From Candidatus Ryanbacteria bacterium CG10_big_fil_rev_8_21_14_0_10_43_42 (GTDB lineage: Bacteria; Patescibacteriota; Minisyncoccia; Ryanbacterales; 2-02-FULL-48-12), in contig PFEF01000006.1 of assembly GCA_002793915.1 (NCBI GenBank), forward strand, positions 97,368-161,367: a DNA stretch of 64,000 nt. Reading direction: 5' to 3'. This document shows positions 11,545 through 24,511 of the stretch, piece by piece. The notes under the pieces were generated by a model that saw nothing but the letters and a program-made list of their open reading frames with translations, had not been told where the DNA came from and did not search any database. Position 1 is the stretch's first letter, and each line of letters starts with the position of its first letter. A program made the position numbers and the translations under genes.

Positions 11545-11618
11545 GGGCGTGTAGCTCAGCTGGTTAGAGCGCGTCACTGATAATGACGAGGTCGGAGGTT
11601 CGAGTCCTCCCACGCCCA
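11545..11618 (+). tRNA. tRNA-Ile (anticodon GAT)
   Basis: Cloverleaf read by hand: acceptor gggcgtg/cacgccc, anticodon loop ctGATaa, T-loop ttcgagt. No encoded CCA. Confidence 0.9.
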
Positions 11619-11628
11619 CAGAATGGAT

Positions 11629-12792: not shown

Positions 12793-13536
12793 ATGAGACG
12801 CATGCGATGGCAGAGTTGGGCTTTGGGATTTTCTCTTTTATATATTTTAGTTAAGGGATTTGGTTCATCTGAATATGCGAGTATGGTAACGCCCGCACGC
12901 TTTTATATACAGTCTTATTTTGTAGAAACGCGCCTGGTTGTATACGAAGGGGAATACTGGCGTGTTGTACTACACGAAAAGCAGAATCCGCATTTCTTGC
13001 GGAGCATCGTGCGTTTAAAACGGGTATGCGAATCTCCCGTATGCCTAACGTCTGCTGAAAGGCGAGAACGGGATGAGATAGAACTCGTACTACATACTTT
13101 GGTACTTAGATATGGCGCCACCTACACCAACTTTATGCGTCTTATGAATAATGCTTATCGTTCGCCGATTCCTATGCCGGTAATGCATTATCACTTTATT
13201 CCGCGCTACAAAACCCCATTTTCTTTTGGAGAGATATATTTTCATGATAAGGCGTATGGGCGTCATTATTCTGAAAACGAAGAAAAGCCGGTTCCTCCCG
13301 CACTTATGCTTCTCATAAAAAATATTGTAGGGAAAGAATTTAAAGACCGTATGCCAAAGCCATCCGCAGAGGTGGCTTTTTTCTTGAAAAAAAGGAAGAA
13401 CCATGGTATGGTTTTTTGTAGATTTCAAATTAAAATATTTCGAAATTTACGAGGGCGAATTTCGGTAGCTCATCTGGTAGAGCGGTTTGATATGCCCCCA
13501 GCATATCAAACTTGCACTGCGGAGGGTGGAAAGTAA
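12793..13536 (+). CDS. hypothetical protein (possible HIT-like fold); the 3' end runs into the tRNA-like element
   Basis: 247 aa ORF with no family recognised with confidence. The last 27 codons are translated from the tRNA-Ala-like sequence, so the true C-terminus or the gene's integrity is uncertain. Confidence 0.3.
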   Translation: MRRMRWQSWALGFSLLYILVKGFGSSEYASMVTPARFYIQSYFVETRLVVYEGEYWRVVLHEKQNPHFLRSIVRLKRVCESPVCLTSAERRERDEIELVLHTLVLRYGATYTNFMRLMNNAYRSPIPMPVMHYHFIPRYKTPFSFGEIYFHDKAYGRHYSENEEKPVPPALMLLIKNIVGKEFKDRMPKPSAEVAFFLKKRKNHGMVFCRFQIKIFRNLRGRISVAHLVERFDMPPAYQTCTAEGGK

Positions 13537-13566
13537 CGGGGTTACTTTCCACGGTTCGAGTCCTAG
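13465..13566 (+). pseudogene. degenerate tRNA-Ala-derived element with two perfect hairpin insertions
   Basis: Its D-arm gtagctcatctggtagagcg, the cttgcactgcgg segment and the T-loop ggttcgagtcc are identical to tRNA-Ala 150 nt downstream. The 5' anticodon-stem half is replaced by tttgatatgc/gcatatcaaa, and gtggaaagtaa/ttactttccac is inserted before the T-arm. No acceptor pairing is present. Confidence 0.5.
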
Positions 13567-13611
13567 GAGGGTAAAAGACTTTAATAATAGGTTTAGAGAC
13601 GTAAATAATAT

Positions 13612-13684
13612 GGGCCCGTAGCTCATCTGGTAGAGCGCCGCACTTGCACTGCGGAGGTGGCAGGTTCGAGTCCTGTCGGGTCCA
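13612..13684 (+). tRNA. tRNA-Ala (anticodon TGC)
   Basis: Acceptor gggcccg/cgggtcc with a G3:U70 pair, anticodon loop ctTGCac, T-loop ttcgagt. Confidence 0.9.
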
Positions 13685-13812
13685 CATCGTAAATCTCAAT
13701 AACCGTTTTTAACCTCCCGCTGTCCGCGTGCCGGCAAGGCGGAAAGAGGGAGTTTTTGGTTTGCTTAGCCGCTTTCTTGTTTACAAAACCCCTTAAATCC
13801 GATATGATTTAA

Positions 13813-13871: not shown

Positions 13872-14069
13872 ATGAAAATTGCAGATAACCTCAAAAAAAT
13901 AAGAGCGGAAAAGAGCTACTCTCTCGAAAAAGTGGCGCGGTTAGCTGATTTGTCGCTCAATACGGTTGTAAAGATAGAAAGCGGGGTCAATAAGAATCCT
14001 ACTATCGATACTCTTTCCAAAATCGCCAAGGCGCTTGAGGTTGATGTTGATGATTTAATACAGAAGTAG
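13872..14069 (+). CDS. XRE-family helix-turn-helix regulator (controller/C-protein-like)
   Basis: 65 aa with an HTH_XRE pattern (SLEKVARLADLSLNTVVKIESG). The stop codon lies 2 nt before the methyltransferase ATG. Confidence 0.7.
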   Translation: MKIADNLKKIRAEKSYSLEKVARLADLSLNTVVKIESGVNKNPTIDTLSKIAKALEVDVDDLIQK

Positions 14070-14071
14070 TT

Positions 14072-15190
14072 ATGAACACCCAAACCTTAAACATGGGCCT
14101 TAACAAGGCTGGTCAAGCAAAGAAAGATGAGTTTTATACTCAGCTCGTTGATATTGAAAAAGAGTTGAAGCATTACAAAAATCAATTTCGAGGCAAGGTT
14201 GTTTATTGCAACTGCGACGATCCGTTTGAGAGTAACTTTTTTAAATATTTCGCTGGTAATTTTAATGCACTGGGATTGAAAAAACTAATTGCGACGAGCT
14301 ACAAGCCGTCACCTATTGCAAATACACAGCTTGGACTATTTGGTGACGAAGAAGTGCTGACAAAATCCAAAGGCCGTCCAAAAGTGACTGCCAATAAATT
14401 TATCATCAACGAAGTTGATGATTTTGATGGCGACGGTGCTTTTGATTTACGTGATGTCGCTGAACAGCTCAAAGCAAACAAAAACAACGAATGGGCACCG
14501 TTAGATAGCGAGGGAGATTTTAGAAGTCCAGAAAGTATAGAGTTGCTTAAACAAGCTGACATTGTAGTGACAAATCCGCCATTTTCACTCTTTCGTGAGT
14601 ATGTAGCCCAACTTGTTGAATACGATAAGAAATTTTTAATACTTGGGGACCAAAACGCCATAACATACAAGGAGATTTTTAAGTTAATTAGCGACGATAA
14701 AATATGGCTCGGTTACGATAATGGAGGCACGAAATGGTTTCAAGTCCCGATGGATTACGACATTCCAACTGAATCAAGAAAGAAAATCGTAAACGGCGTG
14801 AAGTATTTCAGTATGGGAAGAATTATGTGGTTTACAAATCTTGAGACCACAAAACGTCACGAGAGACTGACTTTGTATAAAACATACACCGCACAAGAAT
14901 ATCCTAAATACGACAACTATCCTGCAATAAACGTTGATAAAGTCTCTGATATTCCAATGGACTACGATGGAATAATGGGTGTCCCTATTACTTTCATCGA
15001 TAAATACAATCCAGAGCAGTTTGAAATATTAGGCATTACTGATAGACAAAACACGTCTGGTCTCCGAACGAAAAAATATACAGAAGCGGACAATCCTAAA
15101 TACAACGACTTAAATGCTCGTAGCGTGATAAAAACTGGCAATACTTACAAAGCTGTGTACGCGCGACTTTTAATAAGAAATAAAAAATAA
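14072..15190 (+). CDS. N6-adenine DNA methyltransferase (NPPF motif; EcoRI-methylase-like family)
   Basis: VVTNPPFSL is catalytic motif IV of amino-methyltransferases. The N-terminal DEFYT..CDDPFES region is as in the EcoRI-methylase family, recalled from memory. Translationally coupled to its neighbours. Confidence 0.55.
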   Translation: MNTQTLNMGLNKAGQAKKDEFYTQLVDIEKELKHYKNQFRGKVVYCNCDDPFESNFFKYFAGNFNALGLKKLIATSYKPSPIANTQLGLFGDEEVLTKSKGRPKVTANKFIINEVDDFDGDGAFDLRDVAEQLKANKNNEWAPLDSEGDFRSPESIELLKQADIVVTNPPFSLFREYVAQLVEYDKKFLILGDQNAITYKEIFKLISDDKIWLGYDNGGTKWFQVPMDYDIPTESRKKIVNGVKYFSMGRIMWFTNLETTKRHERLTLYKTYTAQEYPKYDNYPAINVDKVSDIPMDYDGIMGVPITFIDKYNPEQFEILGITDRQNTSGLRTKKYTEADNPKYNDLNARSVIKTGNTYKAVYARLLIRNKK

Positions 15191-15192
15191 TT

Positions 15193-16296
15193 ATGAAAAT
15201 TGAACTACACAGAATCAAAATACGTGAGGTAGTCAATGGCTACGCAGACAATCATGAAGAAGGTGTGGTTGCTTATGGTGGCAAGCTCGATATTCGACCT
15301 AAATATCAACGTGAATTTGTCTATAAAGATAAACAGCGCGATGCGGTCATTGATACCGTAAAGAAAAATTTTCCGCTCAATGTGATGTATTGGGTAAAAA
15401 GCGACGACGATAGCTTTGAGGTGTTAGACGGACAGCAAAGAACAATCAGTATCGGGCAATTTGCGAATGGAGATTTTTCGGTGGACTTTAATGGTCGCAC
15501 TGCTATGTTCCACAACCTTACTAAAGAAGAACAGGGGCAAATCCTCGATTACGAATTGATGGTGTACTTCTGTGAAGGAACAGATAAGGAAAAGTTAGAT
15601 TGGTTCAAGATTATCAACATCGCAGGCGAACGTCTTACCGATCAAGAATTGCGAAATGCTGTTTACACTGGCACATGGCTTTCGGACGCAAAACTTAAGT
15701 TTAGTAAATCTGGCTGCGCGGCATATCTTTTGGCAAATGATGGCGGCGCATTGCTTACAGGTTCACCAATTAGACAAGAGTACCTAGAAACTGCACTCTC
15801 GTGGATCAATAGCGGCGAAATTGCCGAATATATGGCAAAGCATCAGCACGACAAGAATGCCGATGAGCTGTGGAAGTATTTCCAAAATGTTATTGCGTGG
15901 GTGCGTCAGACATTTCCGAACTATCGCAAAGAAATGGCGCACGTAAATTGGGGCGAGTTGTACAACCAATTCAAGGATAAAAAGCTAAACGCCAAGAAAC
16001 TTGAAACAGAAGTTGCAGAATTTATGAAAGACGAAGATGTAACAAAAAAATCTGGTATCTATCCGTATGTTTTGACGCGAAATGAGCGGCATTTAAATAT
16101 CCGTTCATTTACTGACAATATGAAGCGAGAGGCGTACGAGAGGCAGAAAGGTATTTGTGCATTCTGCAAAGAAAAGTTTGATATTTCTGATATGGAAGCT
16201 GATCACATTACCCCTTGGCATGAGGGCGGCAAAACTAACGCAAAAAATTGCCAGTTGTTGTGCAAAGACGATAACCGAAGGAAATCTGGAAAGTAA
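15193..16296 (+). CDS. DUF262 (ParB-like, DGQQR) domain fused to a C-terminal HNH endonuclease
   Basis: LDGQQRTISIGQF is the DUF262 hallmark. The C-terminus CAFCKEKF...ADHITPWHEGGKTNAKNCQLLCKDDNRRK is an HNH motif. Its start overlaps the methyltransferase stop (taattATG). Confidence 0.7.
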   Translation: MKIELHRIKIREVVNGYADNHEEGVVAYGGKLDIRPKYQREFVYKDKQRDAVIDTVKKNFPLNVMYWVKSDDDSFEVLDGQQRTISIGQFANGDFSVDFNGRTAMFHNLTKEEQGQILDYELMVYFCEGTDKEKLDWFKIINIAGERLTDQELRNAVYTGTWLSDAKLKFSKSGCAAYLLANDGGALLTGSPIRQEYLETALSWINSGEIAEYMAKHQHDKNADELWKYFQNVIAWVRQTFPNYRKEMAHVNWGELYNQFKDKKLNAKKLETEVAEFMKDEDVTKKSGIYPYVLTRNERHLNIRSFTDNMKREAYERQKGICAFCKEKFDISDMEADHITPWHEGGKTNAKNCQLLCKDDNRRKSGK

Positions 16297-16306
16297 CACT
16301 AACACC

Positions 16307-19300
16307 ATGAGGCTACCTCCCCAAACAATACGAACACTGTTAGAGGCAATTTTTTGGGGATCTGCTGTTTCGTTTACCTTTATTCTTGGATCCGCTATTG
16401 GATCATGGTTTTCGTTGAATATTCTCCCAGACTATTCATGGTTGATTACTCGTAAGGGCGAGGCATTTTATATTTTTGTATTCGCTCTTTTATTCTCTTA
16501 TCTTTACTTTCGAGATTTTCTACAAGTAGTATGGAAGGTCATAAAGAGTTCGAGATTTGATATTTTTATTGCGGCAGGATTAAGTGCATTGGTGGTCTTT
16601 AGCAATAAAAATATACTTTCTACATACATACAGGAGCATGTAATGGAACTAAACAGCGACAGCGTATTACTTTTCTTTATTATTGTATTTATTTTGTCGC
16701 TATCATGCGTACTGTATGTGATACTGCAAATGTTTAACCGCAGAAAGAAAGTGGACTCAAAATTTGCAAATGATAACCCAATTAGGGATTCCGAAGGCGA
16801 TCTCCTGGATTTTAGTACAAAAGCAAATTCGTTCGCAGAGAATATCTTTCATGCTTCACAGGGTAAGGGTTTAGTGTTTGGTGTAGATGCCCCTTGGGGA
16901 TCTGGTAAGTCATCATTTTTAAATCTCTGTAAGAGGTATTGGGAAATCAAACATAAAAACGAGTTAATTGTGTACGAATTTAGTCCCTTACACTATTCAA
17001 CAGATGCTAATTTACTTGAGAGATTTGTGGATGGTCTAATAAAAGAAATACAAAAGAATGTTTTTATTCCTGAGATACGCCCACTTTTTTCTCAATATTC
17101 TAAGCTCATCAAGATAGTAAATGGATTTAGTATTTTTGGGGTAAAAATTCCAGAATTTGCTAGTAGGCGCACCATTAACGATGTACATAATGATTTAGAG
17201 TGTGCACTAAATGGAATCAATAGGAGAATAATCGTTATTGTAGACGACCTAGACCGCATAGAATTAAAAGAGATTAAGAACGTATTGTTTGCAATACGTG
17301 AAAGTTTTAAATTCCCCAATATTTCGTATGTCTTATGTTACGACACAGAGAATATAAATGCATTGGAGGCAGATACGCCAGAGATTGAGACGGTGAATGA
17401 ATTCCTGGAGAAATTCGTCAATATTAAGATAAGTATTTTCCTCGATAAGAAAAACCTAGAGAATTTCGTTTCAAAAGAATTGAAAAAGGTAATTGAGGAC
17501 AAAACAACAGATCCAGAACTTGTTGCTGTCGTATTAAGCGGACTACGCGACATATTTCAATCACCTGAATTTCATCGTTATACGTCCTTTGTCGGAGACA
17601 TTAGAAAATTGAAGCGACTTGTGAATACGGTGGTTCTTTTAGAGTTGTATAAAGTAAACTTCGATAAAGCAGATATTGATAAGTTTGATTTAGCTCATTT
17701 ACTACTGATTTATATTAATTATCCAAGTATTTTCAGAAAAATTTATAACACCGAAACTGCAGGTGGTTATGGTTTTTTCTCTGCAGTTGGTCCCTATGAC
17801 AGTGAGTTTTATCCAAAAGATAAGAAGAGAAACAATGGAGAAAGGAGCGACACATATGAAAATTCTGATGTATACAACGAATATCTAGAGGACTTAACAG
17901 ATAATCAAAAGTTTCTCATTGAGCAGATATTTAATGTCACTAGGCGACTTAAGCGAGCAAAAAATAATGATAGTGCAAACCACTACATCAATAATGAAGA
18001 TTCATATCGAAAGATAGACAGTGTATCGGAAGACATAAAAACTTCCCTGGCATGTTTCAATGGTGACAAATTTACTGGTTCTGGTCGCAATCTAGAAGAT
18101 TATTTGCGTTTAATTGCTCATCTAGCGCCGCCAGAAGAAGAAAAGCAATTTGCACCTTTCAAAAACTGGCGAGACAAGATCATTAGCGAAGATATAACTA
18201 TAGAACAACTTTTTAATCAACCAGAATTTTCTGTTGAACTTGGCGAGCAAAAGCGACAAAAACTTTGGCGTCTCATTGTAAACAACACAAGGAAACTGAA
18301 TCAAAATGTTGCTGGTAATTTAATAAGGTATCTGACACAAAATATATCTAAATATTCCCTGTTTGAAAACGAGGTTCTTGGCGTAGGACTACGTCATCAT
18401 GATCTTCCTTATTTTTTGGTACGACTGCTTAATGATGCTGGATATAAAGGTAGCATGAATGGTAATAATACGGAGGAAAACATCAAAGAAATCGCTGATT
18501 GGATTTTCGGTGAAGACACCCACAAAGATGAAGGAATACTAGACGCCTTGTTAGAAGATGAGCGAGGTATTCTTGGTCTATATGATTCACTTAGTTTGAG
18601 ATTGATCTGCTGTTCCGATAGAGGTGGCGATATTTTCAACGTATCTAGAGCAATAGCAAAACACGGTAATAAAGAAGCTCCTACTGCGGGGGACACGAGA
18701 ATCATTGTAAAAGAAGAAATGCGTGAAATTTCACAGAAAATTTTTGGTGTGTTTAAATCACGATACATTGACAAAAAGATTAACATTTTTTCGGAAGTTC
18801 AAAAGTTGTCTTTGGATAATATAACGGGAGAATATTCCACTTATGTGCGAAATCAAGTGAAAGGCGGTGTTATATCTGAAGATAAGTTACAGGCAGATGT
18901 TGAATATACAAAATTTAATGCTTTAGGTTTTATTGTTTACCAGCTAGGTGATGACCAGATAAATCACGGGGTTGGTTGTGGTCTTTATGATCCTCTCGGA
19001 AATGCTGACAAAGGAATGATCAAAAACTTGATGAATAAGTATCTATTTGAGAGGTGCTTTAATCCGACAACCAGTGAGAATAATTATGAGAATCTTTTAA
19101 GTTTGCTTTTGAGGAATATTCCATTTGATGCTCTCAGGGAAGATCATTTTGGTAAAATTCCTGACTTTAAGTTAAAAACGATTGTTGGTGTTCTTGATAT
19201 ACAAACTCTCTCTGAATTTTGGAAGGAACATAGAGAAAAAATCAAGAAACTAAACTTTGAGAATTCAGGTAAAAAAATATTTATGGGAACACGATATGTA

Positions 19301-19414
19301 AATTCAGATTCTGAGGATATTTTTGCGTCCTATCAAAACGACTTGCCACGTGTATATAAGGCACTCGATGATTATATCGATAACCCTACTGGCAAAGGGG
19401 AGTCGCCCGCATAG
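16307..19414 (+). CDS. KAP-family P-loop NTPase with an N-terminal 4-5 helix transmembrane region
   Basis: Walker A GVDAPWGSGKSSFLNL and Walker B IIVIVDDLDR within a KAP-like region, preceded by about 180 aa of transmembrane helices. The ORF track begins at 16157, but the ATG at 16307 sits just after the upstream stop. Confidence 0.7.
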   Translation: MRLPPQTIRTLLEAIFWGSAVSFTFILGSAIGSWFSLNILPDYSWLITRKGEAFYIFVFALLFSYLYFRDFLQVVWKVIKSSRFDIFIAAGLSALVVFSNKNILSTYIQEHVMELNSDSVLLFFIIVFILSLSCVLYVILQMFNRRKKVDSKFANDNPIRDSEGDLLDFSTKANSFAENIFHASQGKGLVFGVDAPWGSGKSSFLNLCKRYWEIKHKNELIVYEFSPLHYSTDANLLERFVDGLIKEIQKNVFIPEIRPLFSQYSKLIKIVNGFSIFGVKIPEFASRRTINDVHNDLECALNGINRRIIVIVDDLDRIELKEIKNVLFAIRESFKFPNISYVLCYDTENINALEADTPEIETVNEFLEKFVNIKISIFLDKKNLENFVSKELKKVIEDKTTDPELVAVVLSGLRDIFQSPEFHRYTSFVGDIRKLKRLVNTVVLLELYKVNFDKADIDKFDLAHLLLIYINYPSIFRKIYNTETAGGYGFFSAVGPYDSEFYPKDKKRNNGERSDTYENSDVYNEYLEDLTDNQKFLIEQIFNVTRRLKRAKNNDSANHYINNEDSYRKIDSVSEDIKTSLACFNGDKFTGSGRNLEDYLRLIAHLAPPEEEKQFAPFKNWRDKIISEDITIEQLFNQPEFSVELGEQKRQKLWRLIVNNTRKLNQNVAGNLIRYLTQNISKYSLFENEVLGVGLRHHDLPYFLVRLLNDAGYKGSMNGNNTEENIKEIADWIFGEDTHKDEGILDALLEDERGILGLYDSLSLRLICCSDRGGDIFNVSRAIAKHGNKEAPTAGDTRIIVKEEMREISQKIFGVFKSRYIDKKINIFSEVQKLSLDNITGEYSTYVRNQVKGGVISEDKLQADVEYTKFNALGFIVYQLGDDQINHGVGCGLYDPLGNADKGMIKNLMNKYLFERCFNPTTSENNYENLLSLLLRNIPFDALREDHFGKIPDFKLKTIVGVLDIQTLSEFWKEHREKIKKLNFENSGKKIFMGTRYVNSDSEDIFASYQNDLPRVYKALDDYIDNPTGKGESPA

Positions 19415-20487: not shown

Positions 20488-21651
20488 ATGGAGAACAAAG
20501 CACAGCAAAATGACAAATTTATGGCAGGTACTCACAAAAAGCACTTCTGGGGTAAGGATTATGAATACCAGAGTTTTTTGCCGTCTCCGGTAAATCATCC
20601 CTACGAGTGGCAAGATAAAAGAATTCCTGTTCTCCTTGAAGAGGCAATTAGACTTGTCGGAGAATTAAATGCTTATTCCATCCTTGTGCCGGATGTAGAT
20701 TTTTTCATTCAAATGCATGTGCGCAATGAAGCGGTAAAATCCAGTCGCATTGAAGGCACTCGCACTGGTATGGATGAAGCTGTTTTGCCGGAAGAAGAAA
20801 TCTCTCCGGAAAAAAGAGATGACTGGACTGAGGTACAAAATTATATTGCCGCAATGAATAAGAGTATTGCCCGATTGAATGAGCTCCCGATCTCGATGAG
20901 GCTTTTACAAGAAGCTCATAAGATTTTATTGTCCGGCGTTCGTGGTGAACACAAACAACCGGGAGAAGTTCGCACCGCACAAAATTGGATTGGCGGCACA
21001 AGTATTCAGACCGCCGCTTTTATTCCACCCCATCCGGAAGATATGGGAGAGGCCTTAAAGGACCTTGAATTTTTTTGGCATAACAAAGGATTGAATATGC
21101 CCCACTTAATCAAGATGGCTATTTCGCATTATCAGTTTGAGACGATTCACCCGTTCAATGACGGCAACGGGAGAATTGGCCGTATGCTCATCGGGCTTCA
21201 TCTCATCGAGCTTGGAATTTTGCGAAAACCAACCCTGTATCTTTCGGACTTCTTTGAAAGAAATAAAGGTGCGTATTATGACGCGCTTACTTTTGTGCGA
21301 GAGAGGAATGATCTGGATCAATGGATAGTCTTTTTCCTCTCGGCAGTTATTGAGACGGCCAAAAAAGGCAAAGATACGTTCGAGAAAATTATCGATCTGC
21401 GTGCTCGCTACGAGAAACAAACTATGGAGCTCGGACGCCGGGCAAAACTGGCTCATAAACTTTTATTACAGTCATTTTCCATGCCTGCTTTTAAAGTTTC
21501 TGATGCATCAAAGTATCTTAACGCTTCAAACACGGCGACCAACACCCTTGTCGGCGAAATGGAGCGCGTTGGTATTCTTAAGGAAATTACCGGTTTTTCC
21601 CGTAACCGGATTTTTGTCCTGCACGAGTATCTGGAACTTTTTAAGAGATAA
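20488..21651 (+). CDS. fic: Fic-family protein (AMPylator/toxin-like) with an intramolecular inhibitory motif
   Basis: Fic motif [12 protein letters not shown], an N-terminal SSRIEG ([ST]xxxE[GN]) inhibitory helix, and a C-terminal winged-helix-like tail. Confidence 0.85.
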
Positions 21652-23461: not shown

Positions 23462-24511
23462 ATGGAAAAATTGATAATTTATAATGGCGTATATATGGAA
23501 TCTGTAAAAAATACCGATAAAAATATACACGCCGTCTTTGAAGGGGGCGGCGTAAAAGGGACGGGACTTGTAGGGGCCGTGCAGGTAACGGAGGATCACG
23601 GATATATATTTGACCGTGTCGCGGGTACTTCGGCGGGTGCTATTATAGCCGCTCTTATAGCGGCCGGTTATACGGCAAGCGAAATGAAAGAAATTATGTT
23701 TGCATTGGATTATAGGAAGTTTAAAGATAAGGGACTGGGAGACAGTATACCGCTTGTAGGACCTCTTGCGAGTTTGCTTATTACAAAAGGTATTTATGAA
23801 GGAGATTATTTTGAAAACTGGTTAAGAGATTTGCTCTTACAAAAGAATATCAGAACTTTCAAGGATCTTTTGATTGATGAAAACATCAAAGACTCGACGT
23901 ACAGATACAAGCTTCAGGTCATAGCGTCGGATGTTTCGCGCGGAAGACTTATTACACTTCCGCATGACGTGAGCGAATATGGTTTTGTACCCAATGATTT
24001 TGATGTTGCAAGAGCTGTTAGAATGAGTATGAGCATTCCTTTTTTCTATAAGCCGGTTATCATGAAAAATGCAAAAGGGGACGCTTCATTCATTGTAGAC
24101 GGAGGAATTTTAAGTAATTATCCCGTTGGAATTTTTGATCCCGTGGGAAATACGAGTCCTCTCTGGCCAACATTCGGCTATAAACTGGTGGAACCGGATG
24201 AATATAAGCCACACAATATCAACGGTCCGGTAAGCCTTTTAGCGGCACTGTTTTCGACCATGATGGAGGCGCATGATGCAAGATATATTAAGGATACGAA
24301 TTTCCAGCGTACGATACCCATAGAAACGCTGGGTGTCCAAACCACCGATTTTGATACGACCATAGAGAAAAAACAGGAGCTTTATGAAAGCGGAAAAAAG
24401 GCCGCAGAGGAATTTTTCCAAAAGTGGAACTTTGAAGAATACAATCAAAAGCGTGGAAAAGGAGAAAGCCGCAGACAGCAAGTTTGGAAATCGAAAGAAG
24501 AGGCGGGATGA
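23462..24511 (+). CDS. patatin-like phospholipase
   Basis: GGGVKG oxyanion motif, GTSAG serine-nucleophile motif and DGG. Confidence 0.8.

What the first reader, a model, noticed from the sequence alone, without database searches (positions are those of the whole stretch)
16307..19414. Large KAP-family NTPase with the transmembrane bundle N-terminal to, rather than inserted within, the P-loop domain
KAP NTPases typically carry transmembrane helices inserted within the P-loop domain. Here about 180 aa containing 4-5 transmembrane helices precede Walker A (GVDAPWGSGKSS) and Walker B (VIVDDLDR), followed by an extension of about 650 aa. KAP NTPases recur in defence islands, but their mechanism is unknown. 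The operon context offers a testable partner set.
Basis: partly seen in the sequence, partly recalled or inferred. Interest (0 to 1): 0.55.

Follow-up and report, generated by a model that had tools for sequence, protein, structure and literature searches.

The report
Membrane-anchored KAP NTPase, likely phage defence
The gene is real and encodes a KAP-family ATPase with four membrane helices in front and a long helical-repeat tail behind; it is one member of a small, horizontally spread family that most likely acts alone in anti-phage defence, so it is a modest addition to a known class, not a new kind of system.

Summary
ORF 16307-19414 (+) encodes 1035 aa: four hydrophobic helices (aa 11-143), then a KAP P-loop domain (PF07693, E=5e-44; Walker A 192-203, Walker B 310-317) with no membrane insert, then about 590 aa of alpha-solenoid.

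The novelty claim is weak. This architecture is conserved full-length in hundreds of homologues (41-47% identity), many already annotated 'KAP family NTPase'. An unrelated Bacillus plasmid KAP subfamily also has N-terminal membrane helices.

The window comes from Candidatus Ryanbacteria (Patescibacteria). The family is patchy across phyla, plasmid-borne in Burkholderia, sometimes split, and compositionally foreign here (35% vs 43% GC).

It has no conserved partner gene. Only 1 of 62 other loci shares the EcoRI-like methylase / DUF262-HNH nuclease pair. In 9 of 63 loci, though, it is the last gene of a type I, II, III or IV restriction operon. Large serine recombinases are the commonest other neighbour.

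Closest relatives are PifA (KAP module only), the KAP-fusion antiphage proteins validated in 2026, and RdrA of RADAR (best structural match).

Most likely it is a single-protein, membrane-anchored, NTP-driven phage sensor and effector. The mechanism is inferred, not shown.

The parts
16307..19414 (+). Complete gene for the 1035-aa TM-KAP-solenoid protein (NCBI PJE64395.1 'P-loop ATPase', annotated there with a longer start)
16337..16735 (+). N-terminal four-helix membrane bundle (TM1 aa 11-36, TM2 51-69, TM3 84-101, TM4 118-143). Sequence is poorly conserved (18% identity) but the four hydrophobic segments are present in all aligned homologues.
16547..16561 (+). S81-x-R83-x-D85 motif in the predicted cytoplasmic TM2-TM3 loop; conserved in 50/51, 51/51 and 49/51 family members
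16820..17641 (+). KAP P-loop NTPase domain (aa 172-445), with no membrane insert
16880..16915 (+). Walker A, GVDAPWGSGKSS (G198, G200 and K201 invariant, 51/51)
17234..17257 (+). Walker B, VIVDDLDR (D313 49/51, D314 50/51, D316 and R317 51/51)
17597..17629 (+). DIRKLKRLVNT: invariant basic motif (R433, K434, K436, N440) in the helical lid of the KAP domain; candidate arginine finger or sensor (inferred)
17654..19411 (+). Family-specific C-terminal region (aa 450-1035): alpha-solenoid with a terminal beta-hairpin. Three near-invariant Cys/Gly loops (ACFNG 582-586, C(S)xDRGGD 768-775, GVGCGxYDPxG 888-898) and C917-F918.
15193..16296 (+). Upstream gene, 10 nt away: DUF262 (GmrSD_N) + HNH nuclease (PADLOC type II REase, 5e-142). 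Co-oriented and probably co-transcribed; not a conserved partner.
14072..15190 (+). EcoRI-like adenine methyltransferase of the same restriction-modification operon
13872..14069 (+). 65-aa HTH_3 controller-type protein at the head of the restriction-modification operon
13612..13685 (+). tRNA-Ala(TGC) directly upstream of the low-GC block; possible island insertion site (no att repeat found)

Best explanation
The gene encodes a self-contained, membrane-anchored KAP-family NTPase. It belongs to a small, horizontally mobile family and most likely serves as a single-protein anti-phage / anti-mobile-element defence.

Proposed mechanism (inferred):
- The cytoplasmic C-terminal alpha-solenoid is the sensor and binds a phage-derived or infection-induced ligand.
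- Binding licenses NTP-dependent oligomerisation or a conformational change of the KAP domain. The only solved KAP NTPase, RdrA, forms heptameric rings.
- The change is passed through the conserved S-x-R-x-D cytoplasmic loop to the N-terminal four-helix bundles. These act as the effector by perturbing membrane integrity or ion balance, which arrests or kills the infected cell.

In this genome the gene was acquired horizontally as the last gene of a type II restriction-modification operon. It probably works as a co-expressed second line of defence and not as a physical subunit of the nuclease.

Shown: the architecture, family membership, intact catalytic motifs, topology, distribution and genomic contexts. 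Inferred: the defence role, the division into sensor and effector, oligomerisation and the membrane effect.
For: Family and catalytic integrity:
- PF07693 E=5e-44.
- Walker A/B, C344-Y-D346 and R433/K434/K436/N440 are invariant in 51 full-length members.

Architecture:
- 4 TM + KAP + solenoid is conserved full-length in all listed homologues.
- The topology is N-in/C-in.
- That C-terminal domain is family-specific and is always found behind KAP: 330 representatives among 1.84e9 proteins.

Mobility and accessory character:
- Scattered across Patescibacteria, Paenibacillus, Pseudomonas, Burkholderiales, Bacteroidota and others.
- Full-length copies sit on Burkholderia glumae plasmids next to integrases.
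- The gene is split in 5 of 63 loci.
- Gene GC is 35.4% against 42.8% for the window.

Context:
- No conserved partner gene.
- The commonest neighbours are large serine recombinases and restriction components of types I-IV.
- In 9 of 63 loci it is the tightly linked last gene of a restriction operon.

Precedents:
- PifA is a KAP abortive-infection protein acting through membrane depolarisation (PMC8594841, PMC13001434).
- Tmn, a membrane P-loop NTPase, has a solenoid sensor and exports ions (PMC13001434).
Against: - No member of this subfamily has been tested experimentally.
- The C-terminal region is as conserved as the NTPase (40% vs 47% identity to the query). It carries near-invariant Cys/Gly/Asp/Arg loops. 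That looks more like a ligand, metal or catalytic site than a fast-evolving sensor, so the effector could be the C-terminus and the TM bundle merely an anchor.
- EF_KAP, the best-studied analogue, did not behave as an abortive-infection system (PMC13552941).
- Many neighbours are ordinary housekeeping genes.
- The high prevalence in Patescibacteria could reflect a lineage-specific cellular role.
- The AF2 model is of moderate quality (pLDDT 77, pTM 0.51), and the relative placement of domains is not reliable.
Confidence: 0.55

Rival explanations
1. It is a functional accessory subunit of the adjacent restriction-modification system (C-protein, EcoRI-like methylase, DUF262-HNH nuclease). It might tether or regulate the nuclease at the membrane, where phage DNA enters, or guard the system by sensing anti-restriction proteins.
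For: - A 10-nt gap on the same strand, with no terminator-like site between the genes.
- The same C/M/R/KAP block recurs in a distant Paceibacterota genome, with all three proteins diverged to 41-53% identity.
- KAP is the last gene of restriction operons of types I, II, III and IV in 9 of 63 loci. One case has a 4-nt ATGA overlap with hsdS.
Against: - About 50 of 63 loci have no restriction gene directly adjacent.
- The linked systems belong to four mechanistically unrelated types, so a specific protein-protein partnership is unlikely.
- The KAP gene's GC (35%) differs from that of the nuclease gene (42%), suggesting separate histories.
- Defence genes cluster for reasons other than physical interaction.
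Confidence: 0.15
2. It is a housekeeping or lifestyle-related membrane signalling/scaffold NTPase of Patescibacteria and some other bacteria, analogous to eukaryotic Kidins220, and unrelated to defence.
For: - At least 27 of the 63 genome loci are from the candidate phyla radiation.
- All three regions are strongly conserved in architecture and motifs.
- Many neighbours are housekeeping genes.
Against: - The family is very sparse and patchy: 63 loci, found with two query-derived peptide patterns, among 185,579 species genomes, and 330 clusters in 1.84e9 proteins.
- There is no conserved synteny.
- Copies are plasmid-borne and lie next to integrases.
- Some copies are split, and the GC content is foreign.
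- The DNA scan patterns were derived from the query, so the enrichment in these phyla is partly a search bias.
Confidence: 0.1
3. The C-terminal region is the effector: a novel enzyme or metal/ligand-binding module built on a solenoid scaffold. The TM bundle only localises the protein and the KAP domain gates the C-terminal activity.
For: - Near-invariant loops ACFNG, CSxDRGGD and GVGCGxYDPxG, and C917-F918, R696, R806 and Q810 at 51/51.
- These loops fall in low-confidence parts of the model, as expected for a cofactor site that AF2 cannot build.
- In EF_KAP the C-terminal region is required for defence (PMC13552941).
- The TM sequence is only 18% conserved.
Against: - No Pfam, NCBIfam or PDB sequence match exists.
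- C583 and C891 are not strictly invariant (47/51 and 48/51).
Confidence: 0.2

Closest known systems
PifA of the E. coli F plasmid (founding prokaryotic KAP NTPase; abortive infection against T7)
   Same: Homologous KAP NTPase module: hhalign probability 97.8%, E=7e-13, query 162-482 against PifA 14-357; PADLOC PifA profile 4e-35. Both are single genes on mobile DNA, and the PifA phenotype is membrane-linked (PMC8594841, PMC13001434).
   Different: PifA starts directly with the KAP domain and has no hydrophobic helices. Its C-terminal half does not align with this family. PifA is paired with the repressor PifC.
EF_KAP and three other standalone 'KAP NTPase + region of unknown function' antiphage proteins (PLoS Biol 2026, PMC13552941)
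   Same: One polypeptide with membrane helix or helices, a KAP domain and a large uncharacterised C-terminal region. Found near recombinases in variable regions. Function depends on Walker B and on the C-terminal region.
   Different: EF_KAP is modelled with one N-terminal helix plus one helix inside the KAP domain and a 322-aa tail. This protein has four helices, all N-terminal, and a ~590-aa solenoid. The neighbours here are large, not small, serine recombinases.
RdrA of the RADAR system (only solved KAP-type NTPase; PDB 8fnt, 8fnu, 8hr8)
   Different: RdrA is soluble, works with the deaminase RdrB, and has no TM bundle. No rdrB-like gene is nearby. Identity is only 12-13%.
[quoted passage not shown]
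   Same: A membrane-embedded P-loop NTPase acting as a single-protein defence, with a cytosolic solenoid-like sensor arm and an ion-flux effector output. It is the closest mechanistic analogue.
   Different: It belongs to a different NTPase family, and its two helices are inserted within the P-loop domain after Walker A. No sequence relationship was detected.
QatA of the QatABCD system
   Same: A weak match over the Walker A region of the KAP fold (PADLOC 4.5e-9; NCBIfam 33.5 bits).
   Different: The score is far below the equivalog cut-off of 600 bits. No QatB/C/D genes are present, and QatA has no TM bundle.
Kidins220/ARMS-type canonical KAP NTPases (from memory of Aravind et al. 2004 and the Pfam PF07693 description; paper not held)
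   Same: The same P-loop family and membrane association, with the NTPase on the cytoplasmic face.
   Different: In those proteins two or four helices are inserted between Walker A and Walker B. Here that segment (aa 257-290) is short and not hydrophobic.

Membership tests
KAP family P-loop NTPases (PF07693) | Profile match above the curated threshold | tested here: met
   151.1 bits against a cut-off of 20, E=5.2e-44, profile positions 4-289 of 293
KAP family P-loop NTPases (PF07693) | Intact Walker A (GxxxxGK[ST]) and Walker B (hhhhDDxDR) | tested here: met
   APWGSGKS and IVIVDDLDR; invariant or near-invariant in 51 homologues
KAP family P-loop NTPases (PF07693) | Two or four TM helices inserted inside the P-loop domain (all eukaryotic and only some bacterial members, so not required for membership) | tested here: not met
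   No hydrophobic segment between Walker A and B in the query or in 38 homologues. PifA also lacks them.
KAP family P-loop NTPases (PF07693) | Sporadic phyletic distribution, plasmid carriage, frequent disruption | tested here: met
PifA (PADLOC PifA model) | Full-length similarity to PifA | tested here: not met
   Only the KAP module aligns. The best PADLOC stretch covers 133 of 720 profile positions.
Standalone KAP + region-of-unknown-function antiphage proteins (PMC13552941) | A single ORF with a KAP domain and a large C-terminal region with no known domain | tested here: met
Standalone KAP + region-of-unknown-function antiphage proteins (PMC13552941) | Walker-B-dependent protection against phage | not testable with these tools
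   Requires plaque assays
Standalone KAP + region-of-unknown-function antiphage proteins (PMC13552941) | No obligatory partner gene | tested here: met
   No neighbour cluster is shared by more than 12 of 63 loci, and none holds a fixed position
QatABCD | QatA equivalog score and QatB/C/D neighbours | tested here: not met
   33.5 bits against a cut-off of 600; neighbours are restriction-modification genes and a rhodanese
RADAR (RdrA/RdrB) | Adjacent adenosine deaminase RdrB | tested here: not met
   No deaminase in the window neighbourhood or among recurrent neighbours
YobI/Tmn family | TM hairpin inserted directly after Walker A | tested here: not met
STAND NTPases (Avs/NLR-like) | NACHT/NB-ARC-type NTPase profile | tested here: not met

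The most novel reading that the evidence does not exclude
This could be a mechanistically distinct immune protein class, especially common in the tiny genomes of Patescibacteria. In it, a KAP NTPase ring would gate a channel built from N-terminal four-helix bundles. The conserved Cys/Gly loops of the solenoid would hold a metal or small-molecule site that reads out infection, or the failure of the co-transcribed restriction system. It would be a membrane 'fail-safe' wired to restriction operons of all four types.
Probability: 0.15. Interest if true: 0.65.

Novelty: new member of a known kind. Interest (0 to 1): 0.35.

Why it matters
KAP NTPases were predicted 20 years ago to act in defence at the membrane. 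They were shown to be antiphage only in 2026, and no mechanism is known.

This subfamily is a clean model for that question:
- It is a single gene.
- All three regions keep a conserved layout, and each carries near-invariant motifs that suggest point mutants.
- Members exist in cultivable Paenibacillus, Pseudomonas and Burkholderia.

It also adds a candidate defence gene to Patescibacteria, which have few recognised systems. And it documents a repeated placement at the tail of restriction operons of every type, which would make a test of layered defence possible.

Tried and rejected
- **PDB sequence search:** a family-profile search against PDB sequences found nothing meaningful.
- **Flanking regions:** Pfam and NCBIfam searches of the N-terminal 165 aa and the C-terminal 586 aa alone gave only noise.
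- **Phage genomes:** no homologue in the phage collection.
- **Island borders:** a search for an att-type direct repeat of the tRNA-Ala 3' end found no convincing repeat.
- **Promoter and terminator scans:** not above shuffled expectation, so they say nothing beyond the absence of a terminator between the nuclease and KAP genes.
- **Unavailable resources:** the afdb50 fold library was not available. The Aravind 2004 KAP paper is not held. No supplementary sequences for EF_KAP are held, so it could not be compared directly.
- **'Conserved operon partner set':** tested by tblastn of all window neighbours against 63 loci and rejected; only L031 shares them.
- **Generic AAA/NACHT:** rejected on the Pfam result.
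- **Rhodanese and SoFic as partners:** these downstream genes are absent from the other loci, apart from a few Fic genes.
Full report
**1. The observation**

The six-frame scan shows a long + strand ORF ending at 19414. Its longest form starts at GTG 16157, inside the upstream gene. The ATG at 16307 lies 10 nt after that gene's stop (16296) and begins MRLPPQ.... Homologue N-termini align at this methionine.

The product is 1035 aa. GVDAPWGSGKSS is aa 192-203 and VIVDDLDR is aa 310-317. Pfam gives a single, strong hit: KAP_NTPase PF07693, 151 bits against a cut-off of 20, E=5e-44, aa 172-445. PADLOC's best model is PifA (4e-35), followed by weak QatA hits.

**2. Topology**

Kyte-Doolittle analysis and the AlphaFold2 model (mean pLDDT 76.9) give four membrane-length hydrophobic helices, at about aa 11-36, 51-69, 84-101 and 118-143. 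Two short amphipathic helices lie between them.

No hydrophobic segment lies between Walker A and Walker B. The only hydrophobic stretch there is the Walker B beta-strand. The same four-segment pattern ahead of Walker A is seen in all 38 aligned homologues.

Across 51 full-length family members, the mean K+R content per region is:

| Region | Mean K+R |
|---|---|
| N-terminus | 3.7 |
| Loop 1 | 1.0 |
| Loop 2 | 3.9 |
| Loop 3 | 1.0 |
| Post-TM4 linker | 3.8 |

This is the positive-inside signature of an N-in/C-in four-pass protein with the NTPase and the tail in the cytoplasm. No dedicated topology predictor was available.

**3. The family**

A search of 5.8 billion proteins returned 431 hits. 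The 120 listed hits cover the query nearly end to end (86-100%), are about 880-1090 aa long, and (apart from an identical copy and one 69% hit) are 40-48% identical. Source names include 'KAP family NTPase' and 'P-loop NTPase fold protein', mostly from Patescibacteria.

The window's own proteins are deposited from Candidatus Ryanbacteria bacterium CG10_big_fil_rev_8_21_14_0_10_43_42. This gene is PJE64395.1, 'P-loop ATPase'.

A scan of one genome per species found 63 loci. At least 27 are from Patescibacteria-type lineages. The rest include eight Paenibacillus, Cohnella, three Pseudomonas, Massilia, Undibacterium, Methylophilaceae, Flavobacteriaceae, Ignavibacteria and Micavibrio. The scan patterns came from the query, so this taxonomic mix is biased towards its close relatives.

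Full-length copies at 30% identity sit on four Burkholderia glumae plasmids, beside integrase genes. No phage genome encodes a relative. Five of the 63 loci carry split copies.

In the window, the gene's GC is 35.4% (GC3 31%). The window as a whole is 42.8% and the adjacent nuclease gene is 41.6%. The low-GC block begins right after tRNA-Ala at 13612-13685.

**4. Domain by domain**

- **N-terminal bundle.** Sequence is poorly conserved (18% identity to the query). The exception is a near-invariant S81-x-R83-x-D85 in the cytoplasmic TM2-TM3 loop. It matches no Pfam or NCBIfam model.
- **C-terminal 586 aa.**
  - Modelled alone (pLDDT 72.5, pTM 0.69), they form an alpha-solenoid with a terminal beta-hairpin.
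  - A profile of this region finds only 330 representatives (216 at E<=1e-30) among 1.84 billion proteins. Nearly all are 930-1070 aa, with the domain at about 450-1000. The domain is therefore family-specific and, in every full-length representative, sits behind a KAP module; the shorter hits look like gene fragments.
  - It is almost as conserved as the NTPase (40% vs 47% identity).
  - It carries near-invariant loops (ACFNG, CSxDRGGD, GVGCGxYDPxG, C917-F918, R696, R806, Q810) that fall in low-confidence parts of the model. I cannot explain these loops. A metal or ligand site is possible.

**5. Is the N-terminal position of the helices unusual?**

Within this family it is the rule. Outside it, I examined other plasmid KAP proteins. 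PifA and a Trichormus KAP have no hydrophobic helices. Two Bacillus plasmid KAPs (903 and 884 aa) have three to four hydrophobic helices ahead of a Walker A at about aa 211.

hhalign shows that the Bacillus thuringiensis protein shares only the KAP module with this family (query 156-488 against 167-496, probability 98.7%). Its N- and C-terminal regions are its own. So 'N-terminal TM bundle + KAP + private C-terminal region' is a recurring KAP layout with exchangeable ends.

The literature agrees. A 2026 preprint describes KAP proteins as having four helices outside the P-loop domain (PMC13001434). EF_KAP is modelled with an N-terminal helix (PMC13552941). I could not survey all PF07693 members, so the frequency of each topology remains unmeasured.

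**6. Context and partners**

In the window the order is: tRNA-Ala, a 65-aa HTH controller-type gene (13872-14069), an EcoRI-like methylase, a DUF262+HNH nuclease (PADLOC type II REase, 5e-142), the KAP gene, then rhodanese and a SoFic-like Fic gene.

A tblastn of each window neighbour against the 63 loci finds the methylase + nuclease + KAP triad only in L031. That is a distant Paceibacterota genome, with 53%, 41% and 44% identity for the three proteins.

Unbiased clustering of neighbours shows no conserved partner. The recurrent classes within five genes on either side are:

| Neighbour class | Loci |
|---|---|
| Large serine recombinases | 12 |
| ParB-N6/N4 methylases | 8 |
| ResIII helicases (type III restriction) | 5 |
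| Terminases | 4 |
| Fic | 3 |
| Mrr | 2 |

Among 111 immediate neighbours, the top Pfam families are again recombinase domains (5-6), Mrr (3), C5 methylase, HsdS, ResIII and NA-iREase1 (2 each). The rest are housekeeping singletons.

Sixteen of 62 loci have a co-oriented upstream gene within 60 nt. Counting the window as well, in nine of 63 loci that upstream gene is a restriction component:

| Restriction type | Arrangement | Loci |
|---|---|---|
| II | C-M-R-KAP | window, L031 |
| III | HTH-Mod-Res-KAP | L006, L041, L021 |
| I | hsdR-hsdM-hsdS-KAP | L019 (4-nt overlap), L004 |
| IV | Mrr-KAP | L022, L025 |

The protein is thus a self-sufficient module that often rides at the tail of restriction operons of any type. 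That argues for co-expression as layered defence and against a specific physical partnership.

**7. Comparison with what is known**

- **PifA** aligns only over the KAP module (query 162-482 against PifA 14-357; probability 97.8%, E=7e-13). It lacks helices and has a different C-terminus. PifA is reported to sense T7 proteins and cause membrane depolarisation (PMC8594841, PMC13001434).
[quoted passage not shown] In EF_KAP, the one dissected, both the Walker B motif and the C-terminal region were required, and it was not abortive by the multiplicity-of-infection test (PMC13552941). This protein fits that class by architecture, but no sequence comparison was possible.
- **Tmn**, from a different P-loop family, is a mechanistic precedent for a membrane NTPase with a solenoid sensor and an ion-flux output (PMC13001434).
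- **QatA, RADAR and YobI** memberships each fail a defining test.

**8. Verdict**

This is an uncharacterised but already annotated subfamily of KAP NTPases. Its N-terminal four-helix bundle and long solenoid tail are family-specific. The general layout, the defence-island setting and the antiphage role of standalone KAP fusions are all already described. I rate it a new member of a known kind, interest 0.35.

The most interesting residue is twofold:
- the unexplained conserved Cys/Gly loops in the solenoid;
- the recurrent placement behind restriction operons of all four types.

Noticed in passing
window 13455-13580: A tRNA-Ala-like pseudo-copy lies about 150 nt upstream of the real tRNA-Ala(TGC). 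It shares the 20-nt D-arm, a 16-nt anticodon-arm stretch and part of the T-arm. It also carries a 21-nt inserted hairpin and a long extra arm. Neither ARAGORN nor Rfam calls it. It overlaps the 3' end of ORF 12793-13536, which has no Pfam match.
   Followed up: partly
window 20488-21651: A Fic-domain protein that matches the PADLOC SoFic defence model almost full-length (5e-112). It sits about 1 kb downstream of the KAP gene. Fic genes also neighbour the KAP gene in L041, L059 and L061.
   Followed up: partly
window 15193-16296: The restriction nuclease is a DUF262 (GmrSD_N) + C-terminal HNH fusion. It also hits the Menshen NsnA model (3e-26) and PD-T4-2_A. This is an unusual nuclease type to pair with an EcoRI-like methylase.
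   Followed up: no
window 11545-11619 and 13612-13685: tRNA-Ile(GAT) and tRNA-Ala(TGC), the pair usually found in rRNA spacers, are here separated by a D-Ala-D-Ala ligase gene and an ORF with no family match. No rRNA is nearby.
   Followed up: no
L019:12969-13730: In a Peregrinibacteria genome, a SWIM zinc-finger protein gene overlaps the 3' end of the KAP gene by 11 nt, at the tail of an hsdR-hsdM-hsdS-KAP operon.
   Followed up: no
L030, L046, L055, L058, L062: The family's gene is split into two ORFs in five of 63 genomes, including isolate genomes (Pseudomonas, Actimicrobium). This is consistent with the pseudogenisation often reported for KAP genes.
   Followed up: no
window 23462-24511: A patatin-like phospholipase gene lies between a SurA-like gene and uvrA. 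Nearly all genes in this part of the window are on the + strand.
   Followed up: no
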